Shown here in pieces: positions 24,371 to 26,690 of a DNA stretch of 64,000 nucleotides (the stretch's first letter is position 1; every line of letters begins with the position of its first letter). Made by a program: the position numbers and the translations under genes. The stretch lies in the NCBI RefSeq assembly GCF_003334385.1, contig NZ_QOWN01000014.1; one strand, 5' to 3'. Under the pieces are notes generated by a model, which was not told the DNA's origin, ran no database searches, and saw only the letters and a list, made by a program, of their open reading frames with translations. The DNA is from Escherichia coli. Lineage in GTDB: Bacteria > Pseudomonadota > Gammaproteobacteria > Enterobacterales > Enterobacteriaceae.

Positions 24371-24732
24371 ATTTTTCCCTAAATAGTCAGTATGTTGAAA
24401 CTTTTTATTGTGAGATTTGTTGCAAAAACCATCTGACCATAACGCCAGCTGCCGGGGAAAGGAAGGATTATCTGCGGTTTTTGTGATGAAAAGCAGGATG
24501 ATTATATTTAACCCAGTAAATACGTTCCTGTCTTTTTTTGTATAAAAAATGTTTATTACTCGATGTAAGGATACATTAATTTTACGTTTATTATGATGAA
24601 TCCTCTGCAAATGAGCGAAATTTGAAAGAACATTTATCTGCTGTACGATTTAATGAACTTAATGATACAGCATTACAAAAACAATCGAAGTTTATAAAGA
24701 TGATTCCTGATTGACCAGAACCCTATCCTACA

Positions 24733-25158
24733 ATGGTGACTAATTTTATTACTCCCGATGGAGATGATGATATGAATATATCATATGTGAATAGCAACAA
24801 AACGACATCTTTACCTGTTGAGCTAGATGCACTAAATAATAAAGATACCTCTTATGCCAAAGATTTTTCTTATGCTAAAGATTTCTTTTTATACATAGAA
24901 ACACAGTTAAAAATTGCAAAAGATTTTTGTAGACCTGGAGAAGAAGTATCAAGTTCTATTGCAAGTAAAGTTTTTCACGCATTTATTGATTTAGTTAACA
25001 AAATCAGGGGTAAGAAAGACTTTATGTATATTTGCACGCTTTGCTGTTTTGCCGAGGAGGTTAAAGGTGATTATTCTCATTACAGGACCTTTTTATTTGA
25101 TATTGGTAATCAATATAAGGTTAAACTTACACAAAGCGGAAAAAATAGCTCTCTTTAA
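24733..25158 (+). CDS. Hypothetical protein in AT-rich islet (up to 141 aa; true start uncertain, possibly the internal Met at MNISYV)
   Basis: Open frame in a low-GC tract between aphA and tyrB; internal tandem SYAKDF-SYAKDF from an 18-bp nucleotide repeat; no homology assignable from memory. Confidence 0.3.
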   Translation: MVTNFITPDGDDDMNISYVNSNKTTSLPVELDALNNKDTSYAKDFSYAKDFFLYIETQLKIAKDFCRPGEEVSSSIASKVFHAFIDLVNKIRGKKDFMYICTLCCFAEEVKGDYSHYRTFLFDIGNQYKVKLTQSGKNSSL

Positions 25159-25197
25159 CATTAGAATTTAACGATACTATAATTGAATCTCAGAAAG

Positions 25198-25422
25198 TCA
25201 CAGGTAATAAGGCAAAGCATATTCTTGAGGATATAGAAATATTCTATCGTAACAAACCCGATACTTATTATTAAATTTAATAATGGTTAGATGTGCAGAA
25301 ATTATTACTCCACACGAAAAAATAGGGAAAGGAATTCCAGATAATTGGGATAAACTTAACAATAAAAGAACTGACAACGTTTTATTATCTCTCACGTAGA
25401 ACAACGGCATCAAAAAAATCAT
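25198..25422 (-). CDS. Hypothetical small hydrophobic protein (74 aa), possibly yjbS-like
   Basis: Small ORF convergent with the 24733-25158 ORF in the same AT-rich islet; hydrophobic N-terminal half; K-12 has a small yjbS gene in this interval but I cannot confirm identity. Confidence 0.2.
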   Translation of the reverse strand: MIFLMPLFYVRDNKTLSVLLLLSLSQLSGIPFPIFSCGVIISAHLTIIKFNNKYRVCYDRIFLYPQEYALPYYL

Positions 25423-25496
25423 CTACAAAGAAATAGTGAAAGCGACGACAGTTTAATTTCACTGCAGGCTGGGTAACTCCAGCCTGCTTTCCTGCA

Positions 25497-26690
25497 TTAC
25501 ATCACCGCAGCAAACGCCTTTGCCACACGTTGTACATTTGCCGTATTTAACCCGGCGACACACATGCGACCGCTGGCGATGAGATAGACACCAAATTCTT
25601 CACGTAGTCGGTCAACCTGAGCGGCACTTAAACCGGTATAACTGAACATGCCGCGCTGATTAAGCAGATAATCGAAATTGCGTTCTGGCATCTCTGTGCT
25701 TAATACCTTCACCAATTCCTGACGCATTGCCAGAATGCGAGTACGCATCTCTTCTACTTCCGCCAGCCAGCTGGCTTTCAATGCCTCGTCATTCAGCACT
25801 GCAGCCACCACCTGCGCACCAAAATTCGGCGGGCTGGAGTAGTTGCGGCGAACTGTTGCTTTCAATTGCCCCAGTACGCGGCCAGCGGCTTCGGCATCTT
25901 CACACATAACAGAAAGTCCGCCGACGCGCTCGCCGTAAAGGGAGAAAATTTTCGAGAACGAATTGCTCACCAGAGCGGGTAATCCAGCGCTGGCAATGGC
26001 GCGAATAGCGTAGGCATCCTCTTCCATACCGGCACCAAATCCTTGATAGGCAATATCGAGGAATGGAATAAGCTCGCGGGCTTTGAGAATTTCAATCACC
26101 GCATCCCACTGATCATTAGTGAGATCGGCACCCGTTGGGTTGTGGCAACATGGATGCAGCAACACAATACTGCGGGCAGGTAATGTTTTCAGCGTCGCCA
26201 ACAGGTCATTAAAGCGCACGCCGTTAGTCGCTTCGTCATACCAGGGGTAAGTACTCACTTCGAATCCAGCCCCGGCGAATATTGCTACGTGGTTTTCCCA
26301 GGTAGGATCGCTGACCCAGACGCCTGATTCCGGGAAGTAGCGTTTCAGGAAATCCGCGCCCACTTTCAATGCCCCGGAGCCGCCAAGGGTTTGAATGGTT
26401 GCTACGCGCTGTTGTTTCAGTACCGGATGGTCCGCACCAAACAGCAGCGGCGCAATGGCATGGCGATAGCTGTTAAGCCCTTCCATCGGTAAATAAAGCG
26501 AAGCGCCATGAGGCTGCGCATTCAGGCGCGCTTCCGCCTCCGCCACGGCTTGCAGTTGTGGAATAATTCCGTCTTCGTTGTAGTACAGACCGATACTTAA
26601 ATTCACTTTGTCGCTGCGAGGGTCTTCTTTAAAACGCTCCATAAGCGTAAGAATCGGGTCGCCAGCGTAGGCGTCAACTTTTTGAAACAC
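25497..26690 (-). CDS. tyrB: TyrB, aromatic-amino-acid aminotransferase (397 aa)
   Basis: GTG start at 26688-26690 gives 397 aa ([16 protein letters not shown]...); PLP-dependent class I aminotransferase sequence. Confidence 0.95.

What the first reader, a model, noticed from the sequence alone, without database searches (positions are those of the whole stretch)
24600..25500. AT-rich islet between aphA and tyrB with two unassigned convergent small ORFs and an in-frame 18-bp tandem repeat
This ~900-bp interval is strongly AT-rich and holds a plus-strand ORF (up to 141 aa, likely starting at the internal MNISYV) and a convergent minus-strand 74-aa hydrophobic ORF. The plus ORF carries a perfect tandem duplication SYAKDF-SYAKDF from an 18-bp direct repeat at about 24845-24880. 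I cannot assign either product. The compact convergent small-gene arrangement in a low-GC islet is typical of horizontally acquired cargo, and a toxin/antitoxin-like or small-membrane-protein module is conceivable but unsupported.
Basis: partly seen in the sequence, partly recalled or inferred. Interest (0 to 1): 0.45.

Follow-up and report, generated by a model that had tools for sequence, protein, structure and literature searches.

The report
Truncated yjbS orphan gene islet
The AT-rich patch between aphA and tyrB is the known E. coli yjbS islet: one real but dispensable orphan gene, cut short here by a one-base slip, plus a chance ORF on the other strand, and not a toxin-antitoxin or membrane-protein module.

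Summary
The sequence features exist. The interval has 30% GC against 51% for the window. It holds a plus ORF (141 aa, or 128 aa from MNISYV), a minus 74-aa ORF, and an in-frame 18-bp x2 repeat (16/18 nt identical, SYAKDF-SYAKDF).

The plus ORF is an allele of K-12 yjbS. Across 20 sampled alleles the ancestral gene is a 160-173 aa ORF, intact in 14. Within the intact alleles, pN/pS is 0.34 against 0.54-1.31 in the control frames.

The window allele is 3'-truncated by an A7->A6 slip at 25140-25145, a state shared by 160 of 5,426 complete genomes. K-12's 67-aa YjbS is a more decayed fragment. At least 2,172 of 4,379 islet-bearing genomes carry a frame-breaking lesion at this one site.

The 18-bp unit occurs in 1, 2 or 3 copies, always in frame. 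The minus ORF is intact in only 5 of 20 alleles, has no Shine-Dalgarno sequence, lies in the most variable segment and is no longer than chance allows.

The protein has no homologue outside E. coli/Shigella and no fold match. B2 strains carry the 13.7-kb Kgu island at the same site. In K-12 the islet is H-NS-bound (literature).

Verdict: an ordinary, already catalogued, decaying foreign orphan gene. YjbS function is unknown.

The parts
24372..24509 (-). aphA upstream region (promoter/5' leader). It is the only part of the interval that the B2/ST131 genomes share.
   Evidence: BLAST of the islet against the ST131 locus matches only islet positions 1-138, at 87% identity. In the alignment, homology fades about 115-140 bp upstream of the aphA ATG.
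24510..25496 (.). Variable AT-rich yjbS islet (about 1 kb, 30% GC). It is the alternative occupant of the aphA-tyrB slot, which holds the 13.7-kb Kgu island in B2.
   Evidence: Composition. Present in 4,379 of 5,426 genomes. The ST131 slot holds a sensor kinase, a sigma-54 regulator, 2-oxoglutarate dehydrogenase E1/E2/E3, sucCD, a DASS transporter and an Ldh-family enzyme. Homology to B2 ends at the tyrB stop codon.
24760..24763 (+). Shine-Dalgarno GGAG, 8 nt upstream of the MNISYV ATG. It favours 24772 over 24733 as the start.
   Evidence: Sequence read directly. There is no purine-rich motif before the 24733 ATG. PGAP uses the same start in other strains.
24772..25158 (+). yjbS, window allele: a 128-aa, 3'-truncated form of a 160-173 aa orphan protein.
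   Evidence: Translation. Same locus and start as K-12 yjbS. The full-length 167-aa ORF is seen in CREC-591 and 13 other sampled alleles.
24850..24885 (+). In-frame 18-bp tandem repeat, two units here (SYAKDF x2). Copy number is variable (1-3) across strains.
   Evidence: TRF. Units are 16/18 identical. One copy in K-12, AR_0374, LY180 and O157 (a different deletion register in O157); three copies in FXCREC004. A degenerate third copy of the 14-nt core lies at 24915-24928.
25140..25145 (+). A6 homopolymer followed by TAG. This is the frameshift site (A7 in intact alleles) that truncates the window's gene.
   Evidence: Alignment of 20 alleles. The exact window-type 40-mer occurs in 160 genomes, the K-12-type A6 in 1,703 and an O157 10-bp deletion at the same spot in 309.
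25159..25274 (+). Out-of-frame remnant of the ancestral yjbS 3' end. It would encode ...ELSLTLEFNDTIIESQKVTGNKAKHILEDIEKFYRNKPDTYY*.
   Evidence: Translation of the CREC-591 allele against the window and the alignment.
25198..25422 (-). 74-aa hydrophobic ORF. It is a chance ORF, not a gene.
   Evidence: Intact in 5 of 20 alleles and broken by 1-bp indels or lacking the start in the rest. It lies mostly in the segment with the highest diversity (pi 0.091). Shuffles give >=74 codons 26% of the time. No Shine-Dalgarno sequence precedes its ATG (sequence). It overlaps the ancestral yjbS 3' end antisense.
25464..25487 (.). GC-rich hairpin just past the tyrB stop. It is terminator-like for tyrB and for convergent yjbS transcripts.
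   Evidence: RNA folds of -21.4 and -19.7 kcal/mol with z about -3.1 and -3.2 on the two strands. A weak U-tract (UUUCC) is present only on the + strand. It was not called by the simple terminator scan.

Best explanation
The interval is the yjbS islet, a roughly 1-kb AT-rich accessory segment restricted to E. coli and Shigella that sits in the aphA-tyrB slot. It contains one genuine protein-coding gene, yjbS. Its ancestral product is a soluble protein of about 161-173 aa (19 kDa, no signal peptide or transmembrane segment). The predicted architecture is a disordered N-terminus carrying a variable hexapeptide repeat, a helical middle and a beta-meander plus helix at the C-terminus, and no relative or fold match is known. 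In this window the gene is a loss-of-function-type allele. Slippage in an A7 tract (now A6, 25140-25145), together with a G->T change, shifts the frame and ends the protein at 128 aa, removing two predicted strands and the C-terminal helix. K-12's annotated 67-aa YjbS is a further decayed version of the same A6 lineage, with an added 1-bp deletion and loss of one repeat unit. The 18-bp repeat is an old duplication whose copy number drifts (1-3) by slippage or unequal recombination, always in frame. The minus-strand 74-aa ORF is a by-product of a T-rich strand and is not a gene. The following step is inferred from the literature on K-12 and was not tested here: the islet is H-NS-bound and poorly transcribed, so selection on yjbS is weak and the gene is repeatedly lost through frameshifts, deletions and IS1 insertions. 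The biochemical function of intact YjbS remains unknown. Shown here: locus identity, allele states, constraint, restriction to E. coli/Shigella and alternative occupancy of the slot. Inferred: H-NS silencing as the cause of decay, and loss of function of the 128-aa form.
For: Locus identity: 96% DNA identity to K-12 across the whole interval, with the same flanks and start codon. Full-length gene: 14 of 20 sampled alleles have an intact 160/167/173-aa ORF, and protein clusters of 161-174 aa are abundant in E. coli and Shigella. Coding constraint: pN/pS is 0.34 in the true frame against 0.54-1.31 in the five other frames, and pairwise dN/dS is mostly 0.15-0.5. Synonymous variants number 24 of 58 against a spectrum-preserving null of 15.7+-3.2, P=0.009. 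P(167 stop-free codons) is about 5e-7. In-frame indels (18 bp, 3 bp) occur in intact alleles. Decay: independent lesions are A7->A6, delta-G near 24929, delta-T at 24810, a 1-bp deletion at 25149 and a 10-bp deletion. Counts are 1,703 + 160 + 309 genomes with a frame-breaking state at the 3' hotspot. IS1 sits at three different sites, and one strain has an IS1-mediated deletion. The minus ORF is not conserved. No family, fold or RNA-family match was found. The AF2 model has its best confidence (pLDDT 70-82) in residues 101-160, and the window allele loses residues 125-167. Literature: the tyrB/yjbS region is one of 78 K-12 'promoter islands', predicted foreign and H-NS-bound (PMC3661553).
Against: Constraint is only moderate: the codon-position counts 13/19/25 are not significant on their own, and one pair gives dN/dS above 1. 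Selecting intact alleles for the test removes nonsense variants by construction. The 20 alleles were sampled across identity bands, not at random. The number of fully intact genes in the population is obtained by subtraction, because the direct A7 query failed, probably through BLAST's low-complexity filter. No expression or translation data were examined for an intact allele. H-NS binding is known only for K-12 and only from the literature. The AF2 model is of modest confidence (pLDDT 61.5, pTM 0.51). Outgroup Escherichia species could not be surveyed properly: the single genome-contig scan used strict peptide patterns and returned only a contaminant contig.
Confidence: 0.82

Rival explanations
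1. The two convergent ORFs form a functional module, either a toxin/antitoxin-like pair or a small hydrophobic membrane peptide with a partner protein.
For: The 74-aa ORF has a hydrophobic stretch (maximum 19-residue Kyte-Doolittle window 1.88). It is intact in the window and in four other sampled alleles. The islet is foreign-looking.
Against: The ORF is broken or lacks its start in 15 of 20 alleles and lies in the most variable segment (pi 0.091). It is of chance length (26% of shuffles) and has no Shine-Dalgarno sequence. Its hydrophobicity follows from the T-rich strand (AT skew +0.15 to +0.23). It overlaps the ancestral yjbS 3' end antisense. There are no PADLOC, Pfam, NCBIfam or PHROG hits for either ORF and no Rfam hit. 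Convergent, non-operonic geometry is not that of type II TA pairs.
Confidence: 0.03
2. The window's 128-aa allele is still a working protein: the N-terminal helical part functions alone and the 3' truncation is tolerated or adaptive.
For: The start codon, Shine-Dalgarno sequence and 124 native residues are retained. The same allele is fixed in 160 complete genomes.
Against: The truncation removes the part of the model with the highest confidence (strands 126-144 and helix 146-160). That part is well conserved in intact alleles. Genomes with the K-12-type A6 state have gone on to accumulate further lesions (K-12, LY180, AR_0374), as expected after inactivation.
Confidence: 0.1
3. There is no real gene. 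The whole islet is non-coding, H-NS-bound AT-rich spacer ('promoter island'), and the long plus ORF is incidental.
For: No homologue or fold match exists anywhere. About half of genomes have the frame broken. K-12 literature describes the region as transcriptionally silent (PMC3661553). Promoter-like sites are not enriched over shuffles.
Against: A 167-codon stop-free frame in 30% GC DNA has P of about 5e-7. That frame is kept open in alleles up to about 7% diverged, and indels within intact alleles are multiples of 3. The true frame has the lowest pN/pS of the six frames. There is an excess of synonymous variants, P=0.009. A canonical GGAG lies 8 nt before the ATG.
Confidence: 0.06
4. yjbS is a contingency (phase-variable) locus. 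The A-tract switches expression on and off, and the hexapeptide repeat varies the product.
For: A homopolymer (A6/A7) and an in-frame VNTR (1-3 copies) both lie inside the ORF and both vary among strains.
Against: A7 is short for efficient switching. A6 states are fixed in large clades (1,703 and 160 genomes) and are accompanied by secondary irreversible lesions. That pattern indicates one-way decay rather than reversible switching.
Confidence: 0.03

Closest known systems
E. coli K-12 yjbS (b4621; 'protein YjbS', 67 aa, WP_001321562.1)
   Same: Same chromosomal slot between aphA and tyrB, same strand relative to the flanks, the same ATG and first 25 codons, and 96% DNA identity over the 1.1-kb interval.
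   Different: K-12 has one repeat unit instead of two, and an extra 1-bp deletion (the G near 24929) that shifts the frame, so it ends at 67 aa. The window allele keeps the native frame to residue 124 and ends at 128 aa. Both share the A6 state. Both are truncations of a 167-aa ORF. PGAP, apparently modelling on the K-12 fragment, labels intact alleles 'frameshifted' and splits them. The 223-bp 'frameshifted' feature equals K-12's 204 bp plus 18 plus 1.
Full-length E. coli/Shigella 'hypothetical protein' of 161-174 aa (e.g. UniProt A0A1M0STK9; clusters P0001, P0002, P0007)
   Same: The window product is identical or nearly identical to residues 1-124 of these proteins.
   Different: The window allele lacks the C-terminal 43 residues because of the A7->A6 frameshift.
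H-NS-bound 'promoter islands' / xenogeneic silenced islets of E. coli K-12 (Panyukov & Ozoline 2013, PMC3661553)
   Same: The K-12 counterpart (tyrB/yjbS, 318 bp) is one of the 78 listed islands. It is AT-rich, overlaps a predicted genomic island, is predicted foreign and is H-NS-bound in two ChIP studies. The window segment has the same composition.
   Different: H-NS binding and transcriptional silence were not tested for this strain. A simple sigma-70 scan here found no excess of promoter-like sites over shuffles (6 against 5.8+-2.8).
KguS/KguR alpha-ketoglutarate utilisation island of UPEC (c5032-c5041; Cai et al. 2013, PMC3694859)
   Same: It occupies exactly the same aphA-tyrB slot, and the two are mutually exclusive alternatives in the genomes examined.
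   Different: It is 13.7 kb of metabolic and regulatory genes with normal GC. It has no sequence similarity to the yjbS islet beyond the shared aphA-proximal 138 bp.

Membership tests
yjbS locus (orthologue of K-12 b4621) | Position between aphA and tyrB, transcribed opposite to both | tested here: met
   Window: aphA 23657-24370 (-), ORF 24772-25158 (+), tyrB 25497-26690 (-). The K-12 layout is identical.
yjbS locus (orthologue of K-12 b4621) | High nucleotide identity across the interval and a shared start codon | tested here: met
   96.1% identity over 1,125 bp to BW25113. Both start at ATGAATATATCA.
yjbS locus (orthologue of K-12 b4621) | Same product as the reference protein YjbS (67 aa) | tested here: not met
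   The window gives 128 aa. K-12's residues 47-67 come from a shifted frame. The window is an allele of the locus, not the same protein.
Type II toxin-antitoxin module | Two adjacent co-transcribed small genes, conserved together | tested here: not met
   The ORFs are convergent. The 74-aa ORF is intact in only 5 of 20 alleles.
Type II toxin-antitoxin module | Homology of at least one partner to a known toxin or antitoxin family | tested here: not met
   No hit in Pfam or PADLOC. NCBIfam gave only sub-threshold noise. PHROGs gave nothing significant.
Type I TA / small hydrophobic toxic peptide | Conserved short hydrophobic ORF with translation signals | tested here: not met
   Not conserved. 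No Shine-Dalgarno sequence upstream of the ATG at 25422 (sequence). Of chance length.
Type I TA / small hydrophobic toxic peptide | Cognate antisense or regulatory sRNA | tested here: inconclusive
   No Rfam family at E<=1 in 24200-25700. Undescribed RNAs cannot be excluded.
Xenogeneic, H-NS-silenced accessory islet | GC content well below the genome, with variable presence among strains | tested here: met
   30% against 51% GC. Present in 4,379 of 5,426 genomes, with another island in the remainder.
Xenogeneic, H-NS-silenced accessory islet | H-NS occupancy and low transcription | not testable with these tools
   Reported for K-12 only (PMC3661553). Low Tn5 insertion density in K-12 TraDIS (PMC5821084) fits protected DNA but is indirect.
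Phase-variable contingency locus | Simple-sequence tract within the ORF | tested here: met
   A6/A7 tract and an 18-bp VNTR.
Phase-variable contingency locus | Reversible, high-frequency switching among close relatives | tested here: inconclusive
   The A6 state is fixed in large groups and carries secondary lesions. This argues against switching, but within-clone variation was not examined.

The most novel reading that the evidence does not exclude
Intact YjbS (161-173 aa) is a working E. coli/Shigella-specific protein with a previously unseen fold, and the reference K-12 'YjbS' is only a broken fragment of it. Its maintenance under purifying selection in about half of non-B2 lineages, its exclusive alternation with the Kgu island at one hotspot, and its two internal slippage-prone tracts would then point to a niche-dependent accessory function that is repeatedly discarded. 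Examples would be an orphan immunity or anti-phage factor, or a host-interaction factor.
Probability: 0.12. Interest if true: 0.45.

Novelty: already known. Interest (0 to 1): 0.2.

Why it matters
The biological importance is limited. The locus is a catalogued K-12 gene of unknown function in a known H-NS-bound islet, and the window carries a broken copy.

Two practical points emerge. First, the reference protein YjbS (67 aa) is a frameshifted remnant. The ancestral gene is 161-173 aa, and RefSeq/PGAP annotation labels intact alleles 'frameshifted' or splits them in two, so pan-genome and essentiality studies that rely on the K-12 model misdescribe the locus. Second, the aphA-tyrB junction holds one of two unrelated inserts, the 1-kb yjbS islet or the 13.7-kb Kgu island. 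That makes it a small, clean example of an integration hotspot and of stepwise decay of a weakly selected foreign orphan gene.

Tried and rejected
1. Family searches of both ORFs gave nothing significant: Pfam, NCBIfam, PHROGs and PADLOC.

2. An exhaustive profile search of 1.84 billion representatives returned only fragments of the same E. coli family.

4. The genome-contig scan for other species returned one locus, a noisy K-12-like contaminant contig in a Flavobacterium paronense assembly. It says nothing about other Escherichia species.

5. Plasmid and phage searches for a mobile donor failed. The plasmid 'hits' are mislabelled chromosomes or chromosome fragments, and phages gave none.

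6. An apparent KguR-YjbS fusion protein (P0056) suggested the islet might be a Kgu-island remnant. This was rejected because its contig (L007) contains about 850 nt of poly-A/poly-G and is an assembly artefact. The islet also has no similarity to Kgu island DNA.

7. The Rfam scan of the interval found nothing. The promoter and terminator scan found no enrichment.

8. A direct count of the intact A7 state with a 41-mer returned no match, probably because of BLAST's low-complexity filter. The intact fraction is therefore by subtraction only.

9. The small upstream ORF 24622-24714 (30 aa) was dismissed. A 16-bp insertion in O145/XJ34 alleles disrupts it.
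Full report
**Observation**

The window is E. coli chromosome in the orientation yjbR-yjbQ-aphA | islet | tyrB-alr. Between the aphA start (24370) and the tyrB stop (25497), GC falls to 0.27-0.36. Positions 24510-25440 have 30.2% GC against 50.7% for the whole window.

The ORF list confirms a plus ORF at 24733-25158 (141 aa). Its internal MNISYV start is at 24772 and gives 128 aa. A minus ORF lies at 25198-25422 (74 aa).

Tandem Repeats Finder reports an 18-bp unit in two copies at 24850-24885. 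The copies are 16/18 identical and both differences are synonymous, so the SYAKDF-SYAKDF duplication is perfect only at protein level. A GGAG lies 8 nt before the 24772 ATG, and nothing comparable precedes 24733.

**Identity of the locus**

Megablast of the interval against 5,426 complete E. coli genomes finds it in 4,379, nearly always once and on the chromosome. In K-12 BW25113 the same slot carries the annotated gene yjbS ('protein YjbS', 67 aa), starting at the same ATG.

Alignment shows two K-12 differences inside the ORF: loss of one 18-bp unit, and a 1-bp deletion (the G near 24929) that shifts the frame. Strain CREC-591 has one more A in the tract at 25140-25145 than the window. Its frame then runs on to give an uninterrupted 167-aa protein ending ...KPDTYY.

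**Allele survey**

I fetched 19 further alleles spread across the identity bands and aligned them with the window. From the MNISYV start, the results are:

- Fourteen of 20 have an intact ORF of 160, 167 or 173 aa.
- The window and OW1E2 have 128 aa (A7->A6 with G->T).
- AR_0374 has 126 aa (A6 plus another 1-bp deletion).
- O157-type has 119 aa (a 10-bp deletion that removes the A-tract).
- K-12 has 67 aa.
- LY180 has 17 aa (a further 1-bp deletion).

The 18-bp unit is present once (two different deletion registers), twice (most alleles) or three times (FXCREC004). A 3-bp deletion occurs in 1504D004. All length changes within intact alleles are multiples of three.

**Population counts at the 3' hotspot**

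Diagnostic 39-41-mers were designed so that any 28-nt seed must span the site. They give the following numbers of genomes:

| State at the hotspot | Genomes |
|---|---|
| K-12-type A6 frameshift | 1,703 |
| Window-type A6-TAG | 160 |
| O157-type 10-bp deletion | 309 |
| In-frame AAAAAATGAG variant | 55 |

The A7 query returned nothing, probably because of the low-complexity filter. At least 2,172 of 4,379 islet-bearing genomes (about 50%) are therefore frame-broken at this site alone. At most about half can be intact, and that figure comes by subtraction.

**Is the plus frame a gene?**

- From islet composition, 167 stop-free codons have a probability of about 5e-7. Shuffles reach >=128 codons in 0.2% of trials.
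- Pairwise Nei-Gojobori dN/dS among nine distinct intact alleles is mostly 0.15-0.5.
- Pooled pN/pS is 0.34 in the true frame against 0.54-1.31 in the five other frames of the same alignment.
- Of 58 distinct single-base variants among intact alleles, 24 are synonymous. A null that keeps the mutation spectrum gives 15.7+-3.2 (P=0.009).
- Codon-position counts (13/19/25) point the same way but are weak alone.

I conclude that yjbS is, or recently was, a real gene under relaxed purifying selection.

**The minus ORF**

- It is intact in only 5 of 20 alleles. In 12 a 1-bp indel or substitution stops it at 16-21 codons, and in 3 the start motif is absent.
- It lies mostly in 25276-25440, the most diverse part of the interval (pi 0.091, against 0.040 in yjbS).
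- It overlaps the ancestral yjbS 3' end antisense.
- It has no Shine-Dalgarno sequence.
- Open stretches of its length arise in 26% of shuffles.
- Its hydrophobicity (GRAVY 0.69) follows from the T-rich minus strand (AT skew +0.15 to +0.23).

It is not a gene, so there is no two-gene module.

**What YjbS is**

The 167-aa form is hydrophilic (GRAVY -0.42, pI 7.6) and has no membrane-like segment. It has no significant match in Pfam, NCBIfam, PHROGs or PADLOC.

The word-indexed search of 5.8 billion proteins and the exhaustive profile search of 1.84 billion representatives return only E. coli/Shigella alleles and their fragments.

AlphaFold2 on the shallow family alignment gives pLDDT 61.5 and pTM 0.51. 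The model has a disordered N-terminus (1-29), helices at 28-51, 61-78 and 84-96, four strands (105-144) and a C-terminal helix (146-160). Confidence is best at 101-160.

**Context**

About 1,050 genomes match only the aphA side and the tyrB side of a wider query. The ST131 example carries the following between aphA and tyrB: a sensor kinase, a sigma-54 regulator, an Ldh-family oxidoreductase, a DASS transporter, sucCD and 2-oxoglutarate dehydrogenase E1/E2/E3. This is the KguS/KguR island, described as inserted between tyrB and aphA in CFT073 (PMC3694859).

Homology between the two haplotypes stops at the tyrB stop codon and about 115-140 bp upstream of aphA. The islet shares no sequence with the Kgu island.

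No plasmid or phage carries yjbS. The 'plasmid' hits are chromosomes or chromosome pieces.

IS1 has inserted at three different places in the islet in sampled strains, and in one strain it has deleted most of it. IS1 insertions in yjbS also arose in a macrophage-adaptation experiment (PMC4999529).

In K-12 the tyrB/yjbS region is one of 78 'promoter islands'. It is predicted foreign and is bound by H-NS in two ChIP data sets (PMC3661553). yjbS is also poor in Tn5 insertions in TraDIS (PMC5821084). From my own knowledge, this is common for H-NS-covered DNA. It cannot mean essentiality, because the gene is broken in K-12 and absent from about 1,050 genomes.

**Annotation side-effect**

PGAP marks a 223-bp feature as 'frameshifted' in strains whose 167-aa ORF is intact, and calls the distal 83 codons a separate protein. 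The 223 bp equal K-12's 204 bp plus the 18-bp unit plus the missing G. The pipeline is evidently projecting the truncated K-12 protein onto the ancestral gene (inference from the coordinates).

**Verdict**

However, the plus ORF is a known locus and is a truncated allele here. The minus ORF is noise, and nothing supports a toxin-antitoxin or membrane-peptide module. The finding is ordinary: a weakly selected, probably silenced orphan gene decaying in parallel in several lineages. The only mildly new points are that the reference YjbS is itself a fragment of a 161-173 aa protein, and that the 18-bp repeat is a 1-3 copy in-frame VNTR.

Noticed in passing
window 24510-25496; loci L005/L006 (ST131): The aphA-tyrB junction is a two-state hotspot. 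Non-B2 genomes carry the 1-kb yjbS islet. About 1,050 of 5,426 genomes, ST131 among them, carry the 13.7-kb KguS/KguR alpha-ketoglutarate island instead, and the tyrB stop codon itself differs (TAA vs TGA).
   Followed up: partly
L003 1901-2404; also L009-L011, L014, L020: RefSeq/PGAP labels the intact 167-aa yjbS allele as a 223-bp 'frameshifted' pseudogene plus a separate 83-aa protein. This is apparently because the truncated K-12 YjbS serves as the reference, so the polarity of intact versus broken is inverted.
   Followed up: yes
L025 (about window 24907), L026, L027, L004: IS1 has inserted independently at at least three positions and in both orientations inside the islet. In strain SL124 an IS1B replaces the aphA 5' end and most of the islet. 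A published evolution experiment also recovered IS1 in yjbS (PMC4999529). The islet looks like an IS1 target hotspot.
   Followed up: partly
L007 6350-7250: A metagenome contig (ERZ27273331 contig_1024_polypolish) joins Kgu-island and yjbS sequence around about 850 nt of poly-A/poly-G. It is an assembly artefact that generates spurious 'fusion' proteins (P0056 and a 296-aa poly-Lys/Gly ORF) in protein databases.
   Followed up: yes
L008 (NZ_JAUFQN010000013.1): A 9.5-kb contig in the Flavobacterium paronense CECT 8460 assembly is K-12-like E. coli DNA (aphA-yjbS-tyrB) with long-read indel noise. It is contamination of that genome record.
   Followed up: partly
L006 2489-4047: ST131 also has pnuC plus an AAA-family ATPase gene inserted between alr and tyrB. 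The window and K-12 lack these. This is a second variable spot next to the first.
   Followed up: no
window 25155-25183 (+): A near-consensus sigma-70 site (TTAACA-17-TATAAT, 11/12) lies just after the window's premature stop. It falls within the region that corresponds to the K-12 'promoter island'. Overall promoter-like density is not above shuffles.
   Followed up: no
window 24915-24928 and protein P0008: A degenerate third copy of the repeat core (TGCAAAAGATTTTT, 'AKDF') lies 42 nt downstream of the tandem pair. One database allele (P0008) has an in-frame deletion joining SY-SKDFC, consistent with recombination between these dispersed copies.
   Followed up: partly
literature on K-12 yjbS: In a colistin TraDIS screen, yjbS insertions were depleted (log2FC about -2.0 to -2.4) together with other loci from AT-rich regions such as ygeN and yjbL (PMC9687012). 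Whether this reflects the gene fragment or a property of the DNA is unknown.
   Followed up: no
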